From the NCBI RefSeq assembly GCF_009914755.1, contig NC_060927.1: a stretch of DNA of 64,000 nt. One strand, written 5' to 3'. The notes beneath the pieces were generated by a model. That model was not told the origin of the DNA and made no database searches. It saw only the letters and a program-made list of their open reading frames with translations. The stretch is from the human T2T-CHM13v2.0 reference genome, Homo sapiens. The position numbers and the translations under genes were made by a program. Below are positions 2,711 through 63,886 of the stretch, piece after piece; position 1 is the stretch's first letter, and the number at the start of each line of letters is the position of its first letter.

Positions 2711-39740
<37,030 letters not shown>

Positions 39741-40505
39741 CCCGGGGCCGGGATGAGTCGGACTGCGCCGCTTCCAACCCAGCAGCCGGGCCACCTCGGG
39801 CCACCCGAGGTCCCGCCCCTTGGGCCCCGCCCCTCCTCAAGCCGCGACAGCCCATGTCTATCTTCCCGCAGGTCCCGCCCCAGAGTGAGTAGGCTCCGCC
39901 CCAGCTGAAAGGGGCCCGGCCTCCGACCACGCATGCCCAACTCACCTACCCGCCCGTTTTGGAACAAGTGGGCCCAGTTCTTCAGGCCAGGATCGAGAAT
40001 GCGCATGCTCAACTCCGGATTGTACTGGTCCCGCCCCAGTTCAAGGCCCGGATTGTGCAGGCCCGCCCCGGATGCGCAAACTCAGCTCTCCCAACCTGCC
40101 CGCGCTGATTTGCATAGGCCCCACCTACGGGCTCCGCCCTGGCGCTGCATCCCTGAGCAGCGGCACGCGTGAATTCTGCTACCTCCTTGCTAGGGAGCCC
40201 AGGGCCCCCAGGAGGGAGGGGTTTTCATGCAGTGGGACGAGGCCTACGTGACCCGCACGGCCAGGTTGGTCAGAGCCGACAGGGGCCAGTAGGCCTGCAG
40301 TCCCAGCCGTCAACTCCGCTGCGCCCTCCTGCCCCTCCTCGGGGTCCCCCTTGACTGCTCCGAGCCCCGGGACTCTTCCGCCGTCCATAGGAGCATGCTC
40401 AACCACGCTGGAAAAGCTCTTTTACCTCATGGATAGAGACTCAAAACACATTTCAATATTGTTCCTCTTTCTTTGCTTTGGCTGCTGGGAGCAAATGCGT
40501 GGGAC

Positions 40506-40896
<391 letters not shown>

Positions 40897-42860
40897 TGAT
40901 TTTTAGTATTTTGGTTTTTTTAACTAAAGTTTTACATATTTTTTGAAAATAATATGTTAATAACATTTTCTCTTCAGGAAAATGGGATGTGCACATTGTC
41001 TATCTTACAGTATTACAGTATAAATTAAGTATGTCAATCTCTAAGAAATTCATTTTAAAATACGTTATGGTTGCCTTTTACTATATTTGTATCTCCCTCT
41101 TGTCTTTGAAAATGCACTGGGGACAAGGAACAAGGGAGAGATCCAGAAGTTCCTAAACCCCTGGCTCACTTTCTTGTTTGGCCCCCACCGGACTCCTGCA
41201 GTTTCCCGCCTCCTCGGGATCCCCAGCCCCGCCTCTCCAAGCTTTGTACACTCTCTGCCCCAGCCCCCACCAACACGGCTTCAACCTGAGCCACACTGCC
41301 CTCTAGCGATGTCATCCACAACACCCCTGGCAGGTGCCCTGCATCCTCAGGTTCTCTCTGCCCAGTGTGTACCCAGCCAGGAGCCAGGTGTTGAGGGCAT
41401 GGGACTGGCAACAAGACTGGCCTCGTGGGCTATAGGTGTAGCACCCCCTCCCATGCCCTCCCTGCCACAGCCCTGCCTTGGATCAGTCCAAGTCCACCCA
41501 GCTCTTTAAAGCTTGGCAAGGACCCTTAAGATGACTGACACAGATGTCTTGCCCACTTCATAGGAACTGAAGATTCCAAAGGTCCACATGCTGGAAGCCC
41601 ATCTGGACCCTCCCCCAAACCAGCTCTAGCTGCTTGCCCTGGGAACACCCTGCCCCAGGCAGAGTCAACAACTTCCTCCTTCCTCATCCTCCTTTTGCAG
41701 TATCTACCCGCTTATTCCTCCACCCCAGTCCCAGCAGATCTGAGCACATCCATGGGCGGCTCCTGATGAGCTGGGTGCCCCTCGTGACCTGCTCCCTACT
41801 TCTCCAAAGCCACTCATTCTGTTCGTGACACAGCCAGCCCTCTTGTCTTCTGGCCACTGCCAAGGCCATCTTGGGGCCACCGTGGCCTCTGAGACCTCAT
41901 TACCACATGCCCACACCCTGTCTAACCCGCAGCACTCATTGCAAAAGCTATCTCCTCTGATATCTACAGACACCCAGCACCTCCTCTGGCCTGTCCATTC
42001 TCTTCCCAGACCTCCTGGGATGCTAATCAAGGGCTGGGGGTAGAGGACAGCTGGCCTGGGCAGGGGGCCAGGGCTATCTCTGGGAAGGCATCCTCACACC
42101 CAGACAGGATGAGCCTGGTTCCCAGGAAATGCAACAGCTCTGCACCTTCCTCTCTTCCCCAGAAAGTCTACCCGTGGCTGACCCAGGCACCCTCCTTCAA
42201 GGCCCTATGTCCAGCTGGAAGGCCACAGGTCAACATCAGGAGATGCCTGGGGTTCCTCCCCAAGGCCACCGTCCACATCTGCTCTGAGGATATTCTCCAT
42301 CTCCCCTCCCATGGCCCTGTTTGTCAGGTGGGAAACTGAGGGTCAGGAAGAGGGAGAAGGGTCCAAGATCACAAAGCGAGTCCACAGTGCAGCATGGACT
42401 CAGCTCAACTCCCAGCCTTCCAGACCTTGCCTGCCACACTACAGTGGAATCGCACAGTCCACCTTCACATGTGTGCTCCCACTCCCCTGTGTCCTCTCCA
42501 TGGAGATGCTGTCCCAGCGTCTGCTCTCTCAGCATCAGCGGATGCCCGGTAGAATCTCTGGCCCTCATGGCTTTTTCCTCCTCAGTATATCCGAAAGTGA
42601 GCCAGCTGTTCTGTCCCAGGCGTGGGAAGTATGCTGGGATGTCTGTACACACGTGTGAACATGTTCTGCTCAGCCTCTGCCCACCATGAACCTGGCTGGC
42701 CTGACCCTGGTTGGCTCCCAGGGTGCCCTCTGCACTGACCACTGGACTTCCTCCCAGTGTCCCAGCCTAGAAGCCATGTGGTGGCCAGTTCTCAAAGCTC
42801 AAACTCTTCCCAGTCCCTGTATCTACTGGCCAGTCCTGACAGAACTGCCAAACCATCCCA

Positions 42861-43046: not shown

Positions 43047-44008
43047 CACAAACCACCCTTTGCAGCATAAAGACCCAGGGGTTTCAGTGCATGCCACACA
43101 GGCCCACACACTGATGCACACAGAGACACTGGCACAGCTGCACATGCACACACAGACGCACACACACTCACAAGTCCTGCACCCCAGCATGTGCAGAGAC
43201 AGGCAGGCTGCAGTGGGGCCTGCTGCTCTCTGCTGCCTCCCTTCCCACATATATCTCTCCACCCCCAGCCCTGCTGTCCACTGGGAGGTTCAGGAGTTTC
43301 CAGGAATTCCAGCTTCCTCTGGCCATTTCCAGCAAAGGATTGTCCCCTGTGTCTCCCTGGGCCCAGGGCTCACAAGGAGTGTGAAGTTCTGACTTCAGGT
43401 TATAGAACCATGTCACCAAGCAGCCTGGGAACCCTGATCTGCACTTCCTCCTTCCAGCCTGCCACAGGGCGTACAGTAGGTGCTTAGGGATTCAGGACCA
43501 GCAAGGGCACACAGAAAGGGTTCAGAGAGGTTCATGACCAAACTGAGTACACAGCAGGTGTTCAGAGAAGCTCAGGACTGGCACAGGGCACACAGCAGAC
43601 ACCCTAGAAGTGCTGGTTTAAGGGCTAAAGCCACATCATGTGAAACCCATCCTAAATGAGCCTCTAGACTTCCCCAAACTGGTGTGACCCCAAGAGGAAA
43701 CCTGGACAAACATGATCCCTTGGAGGCCAGCAAAGAGCAGAGCAGGAGGGCCTGGGCAGCGCCAGCTGGCGGTCCCTCCCCCTGGGCTGGAGGAAGACAC
43801 TATTTATAGTTCCCCCTTGGCCCAGCCCCCTCTCCCTTGCAGGGCGACAGTTTTCCCCCTCCTTCGGGCCACTGACAGATGAATGGCCCTCAGAGCACCC
43901 CTAAACCAGGAGAGACCCCCCAACACTCTCGCACCCCTCCAGCACCACCCTGACTTCATCCAGGTCTTTCCCTAACCCTCCACCCTCCCCACGCTGTCCC
44001 GTGCCTAC

Positions 44009-44072
44009 CCCGCCTGCTGCTCCCCGGCCCCAGGTCGGTCAGGGAGCTGCCTCCTAACGAGCCTCTGTCCAT
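44009..44072 (-). CDS. PFKFB4: Candidate alternative first coding exon of PFKFB4 (MDRGSLGGSSLTDLGPGSSRR-), would give a 458-aa isoform
   Basis: ATG at 44072, 21 codons + 1 nt, donor G|GTAGG at 44008. Phase 1, in frame with exon 2. Confidence 0.6.
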
Positions 44073-44590
44073 CCTGCAACCAAACTGGCCAGGGCCACTG
44101 CCCCCTGCAGCTCCAGAGTGGGGTAACCCCGCCTAGCACTCTGAAGAGAGAGAAGCGACTCCTGCGGCTCCTGCAGCCCCGCCTCCCCAGCCCACTGTAG
44201 GCCCGCCCCCACAGGGCTGCTTACAACTGTGAGGGCAGCGCCAGTGCCCCCACTCCAGTCAGCCGGCCACGCTGTGGCCAGTACAGTCTCCCTCTCCCGC
44301 CAGAGCTGCCCATGCCACCCAGCGTCTGCCTTCATGTCCACCTAGAGTTGTCTGCACAGCCCAGAGTGCCTGCCCCCTCTGCGGGCAAGCCCGTCCACAC
44401 TGCCTGGAAAGTCAGTTCTGTCTCTGGCCCAGCAATGGAGTTGGGCTGTGAAATCAGGCAAAACCTAGTCCTTCCAAACCAAGGGACCAGGTCAGTTAAC
44501 CGGGGAGCTAGGGAGGAAGGCAGAGAAGCCAGGTATGACTCACCCACCATGTGTCGCGGCCTGGGTGCACACCACTGGGATTCTCGCACA

Positions 44591-44773
44591 TCCCATCCTT
44601 CAGTCGCTTTGTGTTTATTGAGCACCTCCTGCTGCAGGACCTCCATGTCTGCTACATACACAATGCTCACAGGCTTGCTGGTCCCATCCTTCAGTCGCTT
44701 TGTGTTTATTGAGCACCTCCTGCTGCAGGACCTCCATGTCTGCTATATACACAATGCTCACAGGCTTGCTGGT
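44591..44773. repeat. 91-bp tandem duplication, 2 copies, 1 mismatch
   Basis: tcccatccttcagtcgctttgtgtttattgagcacc...aggcttgctgg starts at 44591 and 44682; the only difference is gctacata vs gctatata. Confidence 0.95.
44705..44710 (-). terminator. Probable UCN2 poly(A) signal AATAAA (second copy at 44614-44619)
   Basis: First canonical AATAAA I found downstream of the UCN2 stop (~1 kb 3' UTR); duplicated by the 91-bp tandem repeat. Confidence 0.7.
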
Positions 44774-44782
44774 GTCGCTTTG

Positions 44783-44890
44783 CTTTACAGATAAGGAAAC
44801 CGAGGCTCGGAAAGGTGAACACCTTTGCCCAGGACAGTCCGTGCGTGAAGTGGGACAGAGTTTGGTTGGAGCTCCGGCAGCCTGAGCCCT
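44783..44890 (+). mobile_element. MIR fragment
   Basis: tttacagataaggaaaccgaggctcggaaaggtgaa core. Confidence 0.65.
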
Positions 44891-45344
44891 GTCTCCTGTG
44901 AGCCCTGCATGTCCCTGGGTCGAGGCTGGGGATGCAGGGGTACGTGGGGAGGACAGGGCCTGGCCAGGAGTTGTTCTTGCTTCATGCAGGTTTGGGGGAC
45001 AAGCACCCACTCCTCTCAGACCCCTCACGTACCCTTACCCTGCTCACACACACTCACAGCTGTCAGAGACTCAGCCACACACGCACATATGCGCCCATAA
45101 GACAAGGCTGCCATGGTCACAGGCTTCCTGTGTTCGGGCCTTTGTGCCTGGAGACACCCCTCACAGCCCCGTCCATCTGGGGCAGGTGCTGCCTCATGGG
45201 GCACAGAGCAAGCAAGTGACCCTCAGCCAGCATTTCTCTGTGTGGTGGCCTATGGGATGACAGACCTGTGGGCCTCAGAGGGACTGGTCGGAGGCAGTGT
45301 TGAGCTCTCGTGTTGAGGCTCCTGAAAGTAACATGATGATGACT

Positions 45345-45670
45345 GCATGTGGCGGTGTCCAGGTGTTCTGTGACTATGGGGCACCCAGACATAGCAAGAC
45401 TCGCCACAGCAGTGACCTTACGTGGCAGCATCCAAGCTGTCCGGACATATATTAGGTCTGTGGGGCACACAGGCATGGCAAGACTCCATGTGGCAGTGAC
45501 CCAACTTAGCAATGTCCAATGTCCAGGCTGTCCAGACACACTGTGACTCTGTGGGGCACTCAGATCTGATATGACCTGCATGACAGTGGCTCCATGTGGC
45601 AGTGTCCAGACACTGTATGCCCAGATGTGGCAGCGTCCAGACACTGTATGCCCAGATGTGGCAGCATCCG
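45345..45670. repeat. Degenerate tandem array in UCN2 3' UTR ending in a perfect 31-bp doublet
   Basis: gtccagacactgtatgcccagatgtggcagc at 45604-45634 and 45635-45665. Older ~85-100-bp units share tgtcc..tggggcac..catgtggcagtg. Confidence 0.8.
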
Positions 45671-45742
45671 TCCAGCTGTGTGGCTGCCCTCCAGGTCTTC
45701 CCATCCAGGGTGGCCCTATCACTGTGACCCCCTCTCTCAGGC

Positions 45743-46081
45743 TCAGCAGTGGCCGACACGGGCCAGGATGCGGGCGTTGGTGGTGGCCTGCTCCCTGGCA
45801 GCCCTGGCCCGGGCTTGCTCCAGTAAGATCTGCAAGAGGCCGATGGGGACATCCAGCGATAGGACAATGCGCGAGCCAGGGTGGCGGGTGGGGCTGCAGT
45901 GGCTCTGGGCAGCCCACGGCCATGTGGGAGCAGCTGAGGGGCTCTCTGAGGCCGCAGGTCGGGGAGTGGTCTGGGGAGAATTCTGAGGGCGGAGCTGGAA
46001 GGTTGGGATAGGGGTCACTGGGACAACCAGGACTCTGCCCAACATCAGGACCATCAGCAACAGCAGAGCACACCTGGTCAT
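45743..46081 (-). CDS. UCN2: Urocortin-2 (stresscopin-related peptide) preproprotein, 112 aa
   Basis: MTRCALLLLMVLMLGRVLV signal peptide and CRF-family mature peptide IVLSLDVPIGLLQILLEQARARAAREQATTNARILARV-GHC*. Exon 2 starts at 46093 after a CAG acceptor. Confidence 0.98.
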   Translation of the reverse strand: MTRCALLLLMVLMLGRVLVVPVTPIPTFQLRPQNSPQTTPRPAASESPSAAPTWPWAAQSHCSPTRHPGSRIVLSLDVPIGLLQILLEQARARAAREQATTNARILARVGHC

Positions 46082-46149
46082 CGTGAGGTCAGGCTGCAAG
46101 GAGAAAATGGGCTCAGGGCAGGGGCTCTGGTCAACTGGGGTCCATGGAC

Positions 46150-46470
46150 AGAGACAGATGGCAAGGGCAGAGTGACAGAGCGGGGGATGGAGAGAGAGGA
46201 AGACACCGAGAAAGGGGTTAGAGAGGCCAGGCCAGGCCAGAGACAGAGAAGGGGAGACAAGAGGAGAGCCAGAATGAGACAAAGAGGCAGAAAGCAAGAC
46301 AGAAAAAAAGAAACAAAGAAATCCAGAGACAGAGGGACAGCAAGAGAGGGAGATGAAGGAGATGGAGGCAGAGCAAAATGGAGACTAGAAGAAAAAGACA
46401 GACAGAAACCATCCCAGAGACAGACAGCATGATGGAAAGAAAGATTCAGACAGAAACACAGAGTCCACAG
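46150..46470. repeat. GA-rich low-complexity tract in the UCN2 intron
   Basis: Degenerate gagacaga repeats. Confidence 0.7.
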
Positions 46471-46659
46471 GAGGGCAGGCGGTTCTCAGCAGGAGAGCTT
46501 GCAGCTGATCCAGGAAACAGAAGGGCAGGAATCGGATCTCAGAGGCAGAAAAGCAGCCAGAGATCCCAGAGTCCCCTGGGTCCAAGCCCTCCATAAAGCC
46601 AAACCCCACATCCACTCAACCTCCAAGACCCTTCCCATCCCGACCCAACCCAGTCCTAC

Positions 46660-46742
46660 CGCCACCAGCTGCTTCTGGGGTAAGGCAGCCTGCTGTGGCT
46701 GCCTGGGGCTGGGGCCAGGCACTACTGTCCTGTGGTCTGACC
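46660..46742 (-). other. UCN2: UCN2 non-coding exon 1
   Basis: Donor GCG|GTAGG at 46659, TATA-like GATAAAT at 46764-46770 about 25-30 nt upstream, no ATG in the exon. TSS approximate. Confidence 0.7.
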
Positions 46743-46744
46743 CT

Positions 46745-47270
46745 CTACCCCGCTTCAGGGCCCATTTATCTCCCTCAGCCCCCTGGGGTGGGAGCTGGTA
46801 CATGCTTCCTGGCATGAGGCAGCCCCCCACCTATGACTCATCCCTCCCGGGGGTGTCCTTAGCCCCCACCCTATCTACTCTTTTCCGGGGACAAGTTGGG
46901 GACTGAGAATCACAAGACAGTGACCAGGACTGGGCAGAGGGACTCTGTACCCATGCAGAATAATACCAACCCCCCAAGGAAAACCTTCCCCCTTGAAACC
47001 CCCCATCTTCCCAAACAGTCACAACAGGAGCCTTTTAAAACAGCAGCTTTAATGCCCCCCAGAATCAGCACCATGTCATCACAGGCTTGGGTCAAGGGGC
47101 GGGTCAGACGCCAGTCACATCCGCTCACTGCCCACAGCCACCCCCCCACAGTGAGTCATCTGCCAGGGTGGCAGGAGCCACAATGGGGGTTTGTCCACAG
47201 GGGGGAAGGCTAGACCCACGGGACCAAGTCACTGAAATAACGGACGTGCACACGCACGCTCACGTGCACA
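46745..47270 (-). promoter_or_regulatory. UCN2 promoter region overlapping the COL7A1 3' end
   Basis: TATA-like 46764-46770, AP-1 TGACTCA at 46834-46840 and TGAGTCA at 47152-47158, RCGTG/E-box cluster at 47243-47266. Confidence 0.55.
47048..47053 (-). terminator. COL7A1 poly(A) signal ATTAAA (variant)
   Basis: tttaat on + strand about 310 nt after the stop; GU-rich downstream element TGTTGTGACTGTTT. Confidence 0.75.

Positions 47271-47362: not shown

Positions 47363-63886
<16,524 letters not shown>

What the first reader, a model, noticed from the sequence alone, without database searches (positions are those of the whole stretch)
44536..44773. A 91-bp duplication that is both UCN2 terminator and possible PFKFB4 start, with a built-in overlapping uORF
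Seen: each copy carries AATAAA (44705-44710, 44614-44619) and GACATGG in strong Kozak context (ATG 44737, 44646). The downstream ATG opens MEVLQQEVLNKHKATEGWDVRESQWCAPRPRHMV then G|GTGAGT (44543), in frame with PFKFB4 exon 2. Because 91 is not 3n, the upstream ATG makes an out-of-frame 40-aa uORF that stops at 44615, overlapping the downstream ATG. The donor overlaps an AP-1 site (44536-44542) and lies ~70 nt past the second PAS. Known: U1 binding near a PAS suppresses cleavage. Inference: a cleave-versus-splice switch making UCN2-PFKFB4 read-through RNA, with a recent (1 mismatch) duplication adding a second PAS and a repressive uORF; copy number may vary between individuals or species.
Basis: partly seen in the sequence, partly recalled or inferred. 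Interest (0 to 1): 0.75.

Follow-up and report, generated by a model that had tools for sequence, protein, structure and literature searches.

The report
Duplicated UCN2 poly(A) site, leaky read-through
The end of the human UCN2 gene carries a genuine 91-base tandem duplication that gives it two poly(A) signals, and the splice site just beyond them is most likely an ordinary route for rare read-through RNA into PFKFB4, not a regulated switch.

Summary
Observation confirmed. Two head-to-tail 91-bp copies (44682-44772, 44591-44681; one A/G mismatch) occur nowhere else in this genome. Each carries UGUA, AATAAA and an ATG in a purine(-3)/G(+4) context. These are the only two canonical poly(A) hexamers between 46093 and 44000.

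The annotated UCN2 mRNA ends 30 nt after the first hexamer. The donor TGG|GTGAGT (exon end 44544) lies 71 nt past the second. RefSeq already uses it as the end of a PFKFB4 model exon that starts exactly at the UCN2 exon-2 acceptor, so that model looks like a clipped read-through RNA.

Joined to PFKFB4 exon 2, ATG 44646 opens a 471-codon frame. ATG 44737 opens a 40-codon overlapping uORF.

Interpretation only partly supported:
- In a read-through RNA, ATG 44646 is the 28th ATG, after the complete UCN2 ORF. Its translation is unlikely and NMD is likely.
- Two poly(A) sites in series should reduce read-through.
- The AP-1 heptamer is at chance level.
- An in-frame ATG of this length occurs at 7 of 74 GTRAGT sites in the window.
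- Chimera lists that contain the neighbouring COL7A1-UCN2 read-through do not list UCN2-PFKFB4.

Published GRCh37 coordinates imply both copies are also in that reference. Verdict: an ordinary member of known kinds, low interest.

The parts
44682..44772 (-). Upstream (5') copy of the 91-bp unit. It carries UGUA (44751), ATG 44737 and the first AATAAA.
44591..44681 (-). Downstream (3') copy of the 91-bp unit. It carries two UGUA (44660, 44656), ATG 44646 and the second AATAAA. Its 5' part supplies the GU-rich downstream element for the first poly(A) site.
44705..44710 (-). Poly(A) signal 1 (AATAAA). The annotated UCN2 mRNA ends 30 nt downstream of it.
   Evidence: supplied RefSeq table (NM_033199.4 exon 44675-46093)
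44675..44675 (-). Annotated 3' end of UCN2 mRNA (...CAGCAA). It lies 7 nt inside the downstream copy, so the reference mRNA spans the copy junction.
   Evidence: supplied RefSeq table
44614..44619 (-). Poly(A) signal 2 (AATAAA). Its TAA (44617-44615) is the stop codon of the 40-codon uORF. Whether this site is used could not be tested.
44538..44546 (-). 5' splice site TGG|GTGAGT, last exon base 44544. It is the first consensus GTGAGT donor past both poly(A) signals. A second donor-like site, ATG|GTGGGT, lies 4 nt upstream (exon end 44548) and is out of frame.
   Evidence: supplied RefSeq table (exon 44544-46093)
44544..44646 (-). ATG-opened frame of 34 codons plus 1 nt (phase 1). It is in frame with PFKFB4 exon 2 only if spliced directly to 33201.
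44615..44737 (-). 40-codon ORF from the upstream copy's ATG. It is out of frame with ATG 44646 and overlaps it.
44536..44542 (.). TGAGTCA / TGACTCA heptamer overlapping the donor. It is no more than GTGAGT followed by CA, at chance frequency.
44544..46093 (-). UCN2 exon 2 extended through both poly(A) sites to the donor. RefSeq lists it as the first exon of a PFKFB4 model. It is 1550 nt long and contains the whole UCN2 coding sequence.
   Evidence: supplied RefSeq table
33085..33201 (-). PFKFB4 exon 2. Of the acceptor-bearing exons tested, it is the only one that keeps the frame when joined to 44544.
44009..44086 (-). Separate alternative PFKFB4 first exon, with no AG before it. ATG 44072 gives a 458-codon in-frame ORF. 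This places a PFKFB4 promoter only about 590 bp past the UCN2 mRNA end.
   Evidence: supplied RefSeq table
47740..47937 (-). COL7A1 exon 117. Its donor is spliced to the UCN2 exon-2 acceptor (46093) in the published COL7A1-UCN2 chimera, so RNA entering UCN2 exon 2 can also come from COL7A1.
   Evidence: hg19 coordinates map with one constant offset onto 47740 and 46093

Best explanation
A small tandem duplication copied the core of the UCN2 poly(A) site (UGUA, then AAUAAA), so UCN2 now ends in two poly(A) sites 91 nt apart.

The first site is the one seen in the reference mRNA. It also gained a better GU-rich downstream element, because the start of the second copy now follows it.

A minority of polymerases escape both sites. 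Their RNA may begin at the UCN2 promoter or come from COL7A1 read-through that splices into UCN2 exon 2. The next consensus 5' splice site on that RNA is TGG|GTGAGT at 44544. It turns the would-be terminal exon into a 1550-nt internal exon. That exon is spliced to a downstream PFKFB4 acceptor: exon 2 (33201) if the frame is to be kept, or the alternative exon at 39196, which breaks it. The PFKFB4 first exons have no acceptor.

This is the usual way a conjoined or transcription-induced chimeric RNA forms, and it is what the RefSeq PFKFB4 model exon 44544-46093 records.

The in-frame ATG 44646 and the overlapping uORF are real in the sequence but are by-products. In the read-through RNA they sit behind the full UCN2 ORF and 24 further-upstream ATGs, so the PFKFB4 part is rarely if ever translated and the RNA should be degraded by NMD. 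The duplication is neutral or mildly strengthens termination.

Shown: the anatomy, the frames, the uniqueness of the unit and the annotated use of the donor. Inferred: low abundance, NMD, lack of translation and the effect on termination.
For: - The duplication is real and unique to this locus.
- The two AATAAA in the copies are the only canonical hexamers between 46093 and 44000.
- The UCN2 mRNA ends 30 nt after the first hexamer (supplied table).
- Each copy has UGUA 41 nt upstream of its hexamer.
- The 40 nt after site 1 are 62% G+T with 4 TGT. After site 2 they are 50% G+T with 1 TGT.
- The model exon starts at the UCN2 exon-2 acceptor (AG present). The PFKFB4 first exons 39644-39766, 39946-40063 and 44009-44086 have no AG before them.
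- Direct joining to 33201 gives 471 codons. Joining via exon 39049-39196 stops after 40 codons.
- 27 ATGs precede ATG 44646, and the UCN2 stop lies 1199 nt before the junction.
- Read-through at this locus is documented one gene upstream. COL7A1 exon 117 spliced to UCN2 exon 2 was found in 13 of 23 laryngeal tumours, in 30 of 160 ovarian tumours and in about 80% of 192 oral-cancer RNA-seq samples.
- COL7A1 has a single ATTAAA, whereas UCN2 has two AATAAA.
- The general mechanism of read-through fusion RNAs is described in passages of review PMC11870849.
- There is no RNA structure signal (z = +1.16) and no Rfam match at E <= 1.
Against: - No RNA data could be examined. I cannot see the model's exon chain, its supporting reads, the usage of either poly(A) site or any transcription start sites.
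- A strong-context ATG exactly in phase with exon 2 is only moderately likely by chance (7 of 74), so selection for a coding first exon is not excluded.
- UCN2 and PFKFB4 are both listed among hypoxia-induced HIF1A targets in one study, which leaves room for coupled expression.
- On a position matrix built from 78 annotated donors in this window, the 44544 donor scores 6.3 bits. That is the 13th percentile, lower than the neighbouring GTGGGT site at 44548, which scores 8.7. The matrix is dominated by COL7A1 exons, so the ranking is unreliable. It still does not show that 44544 is a strong site.
- A 1550-nt internal exon is unusually long. This fits low efficiency but is not evidence for the model.
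Confidence: 0.6

Rival explanations
1. U1 binding at the 44544 donor competes with cleavage at the nearby poly(A) sites in a regulated way. The resulting UCN2-PFKFB4 RNA is translated from ATG 44646 into a PFKFB4 with a new N-terminus, and the duplicated ATG acts as a repressive overlapping uORF.
For: - The donor lies 71 nt past the second hexamer and has a perfect intronic GTGAGT.
- The frame is kept into exon 2, giving 471 codons.
- The uORF geometry is correct.
- U1 suppression of poly(A) sites is established (review passages). The HIV-1 major splice donor silencing the 5' LTR poly(A) site is a recalled precedent.
- Both genes are reported as hypoxia-induced.
Against: - 27 upstream ATGs, including the whole UCN2 ORF, precede ATG 44646 in the read-through RNA.
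- An NMD configuration is expected, because the UCN2 stop lies 1199 nt before the junction.
- The reference mRNA ends at the first site, 131 nt upstream of the donor.
- Nothing indicates regulation.
- PFKFB4 does not occur in the two supplementary files of the ovarian study that list COL7A1-UCN2. Neither UCN2 nor PFKFB4 occurs in the one supplementary file of the renal read-through study.
- No paper contains 'UCN2-PFKFB4' or 'PFKFB4-UCN2'.
Confidence: 0.08
2. An independent promoter inside the distal UCN2 3' UTR starts transcripts a few hundred bases upstream of the duplication. In that case 44737 or 44646 are among the first AUGs, and the exon is a genuine coding first exon of PFKFB4 with real uORF control.
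For: - PFKFB4 has several alternative first exons joined in phase 1 to exon 2. One starts at 44086, only 460 bp downstream, and gives a 458-codon ORF.
- A review states that PFKFB genes use various promoters and 5' exons.
- In the PFKFB4 frame the stretch upstream of the donor is open for 66 codons.
Against: - The only annotated form starts at the UCN2 exon-2 acceptor, not at an internal site (supplied table).
- The region is not a CpG island: CpG observed/expected is at most 0.42 in 200-nt windows stepped by 100 nt from 43700 to 44999.
- The 34-residue peptide has no other match in the genome.
- An 11-residue stretch of that peptide is not found in the paper library.
Confidence: 0.1
3. The donor acts mainly as a U1 landing site that damps the second poly(A) site without much productive splicing. 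This would shift UCN2 3'-end formation to the first, newly created site.
For: - The donor is 71 nt from the second hexamer and 162 nt from the first.
- The reference mRNA uses the first site.
- U1 suppression of nearby poly(A) sites is established.
Against: - The first site is transcribed first and has the more GU-rich downstream element. That alone explains its use.
- No data on second-site usage were available.
Confidence: 0.1

Closest known systems
Transcription-induced chimeras / conjoined genes, including the published COL7A1-UCN2 chimera at this locus (Tao et al. 2018, PMC5834868, passages read)
   Same: - Same-strand neighbouring genes, with failure to terminate at the upstream gene.
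- A GT-AG splice into an internal acceptor of the next gene.
- The acceptor 46093 is shared with the published chimera.
   Different: - Here the donor lies beyond the poly(A) sites, in an extended terminal exon. The typical form uses the penultimate exon's donor.
- The whole upstream ORF is retained.
- The intron is 11.3 kb if exon 2 is the acceptor. The review gives a median of about 2 kb for such fusions.
- This pair is not in print in the library searched.
Tandem (alternative) poly(A) sites in a 3' UTR
   Same: Two AAUAAA sites with upstream UGUA, 91 nt apart in one terminal exon.
   Different: The two sites are copies of each other made by a single duplication, and they differ only in what follows them. 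Use of the second site is untested.
U1 snRNP suppression of poly(A) sites (telescripting, seen in review passages; HIV-1 major splice donor and 5' LTR site, recalled)
   Same: A 5' splice site within 200 nt downstream of a poly(A) signal.
   Different: No functional evidence here. The poly(A) site is the normal end of a gene, not a premature one.
Alternative first exons giving different N-termini in PFKFB genes (review PMC7926708, passages read; PFKFB1 liver and muscle forms partly recalled)
   Same: An alternative 5' exon joined in phase 1 to the common exon 2, replacing about 32 N-terminal residues.
   Different: This exon has no promoter of its own in the annotation and lies inside another gene's transcript.
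Overlapping upstream ORFs that repress a main ORF (for example ATF4 uORF2, recalled)
   Same: An upstream AUG in an identical context, out of frame, ending after the main AUG.
   Different: The leader already holds 24 further-upstream AUGs and a complete gene, so the classic logic does not apply unless a nearby start site exists.

Membership tests
Tandem duplication (two-copy minisatellite) | Head-to-tail copies of one unit at high identity | tested here: met
   Period 91, 2.0 copies, 98-99% identity
Tandem duplication (two-copy minisatellite) | Not a dispersed repeat family | tested here: met
   Only 2 matches in the 3.1-Gb assembly, both here. No diverged copies in the window.
Tandem duplication (two-copy minisatellite) | Copy number varies among individuals or species | not testable with these tools
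   No other human or primate assembly is held. Indirectly, the GRCh37 interval from the COL7A1 end to the PFKFB4 start is 7269 bp against 7263 bp here. That is not 91 bp shorter, so GRCh37 probably also has two copies.
Functional poly(A) site | AAUAAA hexamer with upstream UGUA and a downstream GU-rich element | tested here: met
   Both hexamers have UGUA at -41. The downstream 40 nt are 62% G+T for site 1 and 50% for site 2.
Functional poly(A) site | mRNA 3' ends 10-30 nt downstream | tested here: inconclusive
   Site 1: the RefSeq mRNA ends 30 nt downstream (supplied table). Site 2: no 3'-end data available.
Conjoined gene / transcription-induced chimera | Adjacent genes on the same strand | tested here: met
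   COL7A1, UCN2 and PFKFB4 are all on the minus strand (supplied table).
Conjoined gene / transcription-induced chimera | One RNA holding exons of both genes, joined by canonical splicing | tested here: inconclusive
   The RefSeq model exon 44544-46093 covers UCN2 exon 2 from its acceptor and ends in GT. The exon chain and supporting reads are not visible. The pair is absent from the chimera lists searched.
U1-mediated poly(A) site suppression | 5' splice site complementary to U1 near the poly(A) signal | tested here: met
   TGG|GTGAGT, 71 nt after the second hexamer. It matches the recalled consensus CAG|GTRAGT at 7 of 9 positions. The local matrix score is only in the 13th percentile.
U1-mediated poly(A) site suppression | Poly(A) site use rises when the donor or U1 is inactivated | not testable with these tools
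   Needs a minigene or a U1 antisense experiment.
Regulatory overlapping uORF | Upstream AUG out of frame, ending after the main AUG | tested here: met
   ATG 44737, 40 codons, stop 44617-44615
Regulatory overlapping uORF | The main AUG is otherwise reachable by scanning (a short leader with few AUGs) | tested here: not met
   27 ATGs precede 44646 in the only annotated RNA form, including the 112-codon UCN2 ORF.
AP-1 binding site | TGASTCA present beyond chance | tested here: not met
   10 sites in the window against 13.1 expected. The same overlap occurs at the canonical donor at 21462.
Coding alternative first exon of PFKFB4 | An AUG in frame with exon 2 | tested here: met
   471 codons when joined to 33201
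Coding alternative first exon of PFKFB4 | Its own transcription start just upstream | not testable with these tools
   The annotation gives only a 5' end at a splice acceptor. There is no CpG island and no CAGE data.

The most novel reading that the evidence does not exclude
A single lineage-specific 91-bp duplication rewired the boundary between two hypoxia-induced neighbours. It created a new, stronger first poly(A) site for UCN2, because the copy's own GU-rich start became the downstream element. At the same stroke it put an overlapping uORF in front of an older in-frame PFKFB4 start. Together these uncoupled PFKFB4 from UCN2 and COL7A1 read-through in apes or humans. Species or individuals with one copy would then show more read-through and some translation of an N-terminally distinct PFKFB4.
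Probability: 0.08. Interest if true: 0.5.

Novelty: new member of a known kind. Interest (0 to 1): 0.2.

Why it matters
The importance is modest.
- It shows that COL7A1, UCN2 and PFKFB4 form a chain of same-strand genes linked by read-through splicing. Short-read counts for the small, weakly expressed UCN2 gene can therefore be contaminated by neighbours' RNA. That matters for reports of UCN2 induction, for example by hypoxia.
- It is a clean natural example of a small duplication creating a tandem poly(A) site. The new upstream site inherits a good downstream element from the copy behind it.
- It does not open a new mechanism.

Tried and rejected
- **Dispersed repeat or older array.** Rejected: only two genomic matches and no diverged copies.
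- **Structured RNA or known RNA family.** Rejected: fold z = +1.16, with 172 of 200 shuffles folding at least as well; 0 Rfam matches at E <= 1 in 43800-46800.
- **AP-1 site as a designed feature.** Rejected.
- **CpG-island promoter around the duplication.** Rejected: CpG observed/expected is at most 0.42.
- **Hypoxia-response core motifs inside the finding.** None lies in 44536-44773. The nearest RCGTG sites in the 3' flank are at 44268, 43990, 42650 and 42620.
- **Splice routes.** The route 44544 to 39196 breaks the frame after 40 codons. Routes into 39766 or 44086 are impossible because no AG precedes those exons.
- **Local donor matrix.** It gave an ambiguous ranking and is biased by collagen exons, so I do not rely on it.
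- **Paralogues of the 34-residue peptide.** Only self-matches.
- **Literature.** UCN2 with PFKFB4 gave 14 papers. I opened four of them (and, for its supplements, 51) and found no UCN2-PFKFB4 read-through. The other ten I judged from the listing only. The joined names gave 0 papers. UCN2 with VNTR gave 3 papers, none relevant by title. The 11-residue peptide string gave 0.
- **Could not be read.** The supplements of the 2010 conjoined-gene catalogue, which could list this pair. Only 12 of 33 supplementary files of PMC5431906 were searched; they gave only expression clusters. Buhler et al. 2009, on a hypoxia element in the UCN2 3' flank, is not held. I saw only one sentence about it and its reference in PMC3362921.

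Full report
**What is there**

On the minus strand, the last part of the UCN2 3' UTR is duplicated head to tail.
- The copies are 44772-44682 and 44681-44591, 91 nt each. They differ at one position, A at 44746 versus G at 44655.
- The unit is found nowhere else in the 3.1-Gb assembly (2 matches, both here). It has no older diverged copies in the window.
- Each copy holds UGUA 41 nt upstream of an AATAAA. The G variant gives the downstream copy a second UGUA.
- Each copy also holds an ATG in the context G(-3)...G(+4).
- The two AATAAA are the only canonical poly(A) hexamers between the UCN2 exon-2 acceptor (46093) and 44000.

So the thing duplicated is the core of the gene's only poly(A) site.

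**The 3' end of UCN2**

The supplied RefSeq table ends NM_033199.4 at 44675. That is 30 nt after the first hexamer and 7 nt into the second copy. The reference mRNA therefore spans the copy junction (inference).

The 40 nt after that cleavage site are the GU-rich start of the second copy: 62% G+T with four TGT. The 40 nt after the equivalent point behind the second hexamer are 50% G+T with one TGT. The duplication thus created an upstream site with the better downstream element.

Two published sets of GRCh37 coordinates map onto the window with one constant offset at 47740, 47030 and 46093. They put 7269 bp between the COL7A1 end and the PFKFB4 start, against 7263 bp here. A one-copy reference would be about 91 bp shorter. 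So the duplication is probably not private to this assembly (inference, and it depends on which PFKFB4 start that paper used).

One mismatch in 91 nt is compatible with anything from about 0.1 to 61 My. 'Recent' is therefore not established.

**The donor**

TGG|GTGAGT, with last exon base 44544, lies 71 nt past the second hexamer. RefSeq already lists exon 44544-46093 among PFKFB4 transcripts.
- That exon's 5' end is exactly the UCN2 exon-2 acceptor, and an AG precedes it. A true start site coinciding with another gene's acceptor is unlikely.
- I therefore read the model as a read-through RNA clipped at the acceptor.
- The other upstream PFKFB4 exons (39644-39766, 39946-40063, 44009-44086) have no AG and are first exons. 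A read-through RNA can therefore only splice to exon 2 (33201) or to the alternative internal exon 39049-39196.
- Direct joining to 33201 keeps ATG 44646 in frame, giving 471 codons against the canonical 469. The route through 39196 stops after 40 codons.

**Why I do not accept the 'PFKFB4 start with a built-in uORF' reading**

- In UCN2 exon 1 plus the extended exon 2 there are 31 ATGs. ATG 44646 is the 28th.
- The first ATG opens the 112-codon UCN2 ORF, whose stop is 1199 nt before the 44544 junction.
- By the scanning model and the 50-55-nt rule (established knowledge), such an RNA translates UCN2 and is an NMD target.
- The duplicated ATG 44737 does make a 40-codon ORF ending inside the second AATAAA, past ATG 44646. 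It adds little to a leader that already blocks scanning.
- An ATG-opened frame of at least 34 codons in one fixed phase occurs at 7 of 74 GTRAGT sites in this window. The in-frame arrangement is therefore unremarkable.
- The 34-residue peptide has no other match in the genome. An 11-residue stretch of it is not in the paper library.

**Why I do not accept the 'switch'**

- U1 bound near a poly(A) site can suppress it (review passages; the HIV-1 case is recalled). A donor 71 nt downstream could do so. I give that some weight as a rival.
- Nothing, however, indicates regulation.
- Two poly(A) sites in series should make escape rarer (inference).
- The first site being transcribed first, with the better downstream element, suffices to explain the annotated end.
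- The 1550-nt internal exon that the splice implies is unusually long, which fits low efficiency.
- The local donor matrix put 44544 at the 13th percentile of 78 annotated donors and scored the out-of-frame GTGGGT site 4 nt upstream higher.

**The neighbourhood**

Read-through is documented one gene upstream. COL7A1 exon 117 is spliced to the UCN2 exon-2 acceptor in:
- 13 of 23 laryngeal tumours;
- 30 of 160 ovarian tumours;
- about 80% of 192 oral-cancer samples.

COL7A1 ends with a single ATTAAA, 292 bp before the UCN2 start. RNA entering UCN2 exon 2, and hence any RNA reaching the 44544 donor, may therefore start in COL7A1.

By contrast, PFKFB4 does not appear in the ovarian study's two supplementary files. 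Neither gene appears in the renal read-through study's one supplementary file. No paper contains the joined gene names. This is weak evidence that escape past the double site is rare. The 2010 conjoined-gene catalogue's supplements could not be read.

**Other checks**

- The AP-1 heptamer is at chance level: 10 observed against 13.1 expected. It also recurs at a canonical PFKFB4 donor at 21462.
- There is no RNA structure signal, no Rfam match and no CpG island.

**Comparison with known kinds**

The locus combines a two-copy tandem duplication, a tandem poly(A) site and a conjoined-gene splice. Each is a known kind, and the donor's use is already in the annotation. The particular duplication and the UCN2-to-PFKFB4 link are not described in the papers I could search.

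**Verdict**

This is a new member of known kinds, with interest 0.2.

Noticed in passing
47740-47937 and 46093: The published COL7A1-UCN2 read-through chimera (hg19 coordinates in PMC5834868) maps exactly onto the COL7A1 exon 117 donor (47740) and the UCN2 exon-2 acceptor (46093). The three genes COL7A1, UCN2 and PFKFB4 may therefore be linked in one read-through chain.
   Followed up: partly
47048-47053: COL7A1 ends with a single ATTAAA variant hexamer, only 292 bp upstream of the UCN2 start (46738). That fits its documented read-through into UCN2.
   Followed up: partly
44009-44086: An alternative PFKFB4 first exon with no AG before it. ATG 44072 (context TGCAGGATGG) gives a 458-codon ORF in frame with exon 2. 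This promoter lies about 590 bp past the UCN2 mRNA end, inside the UCN2 termination zone.
   Followed up: partly
45594-45669 (also 45343-45501): A 31-bp tandem repeat of 2.5 copies at 95% identity in the UCN2 3' UTR. Older degenerate copies of the same ATGTGGCAG...TCCAGACAC motif lie at spacings of 91-247 bp. This 3' UTR seems prone to small tandem duplications.
   Followed up: no
46140-46560: UCN2 intron 1 is a purine-rich low-complexity tract on the plus strand (AGACAGA-type degenerate repeats). AT skew reaches 0.85 and GC skew 0.46.
   Followed up: no
44268-44272, 43990-43994, 42650-42655, 42620-42624: RCGTG hypoxia-response core motifs in the UCN2 3' flank, which is also the PFKFB4 upstream region. 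A 2009 paper (not held; known only from a citing review) reports a functional hypoxia element in the UCN2 3'-flanking region. Such an element could serve PFKFB4's upstream promoter as well. RCGTG occurs 141 times in the window against 64.7 expected.
   Followed up: partly
44548: A second donor-like site, ATG|GTGGGT, lies 4 nt upstream of the annotated donor. Using it would put ATG 44646 out of frame with PFKFB4 exon 2.
   Followed up: partly
21454-21460: The canonical PFKFB4 exon 21462-21583 also ends in a donor reading GTGAGTCA. An AP-1 heptamer overlapping a donor is therefore a trivial coincidence.
   Followed up: yes
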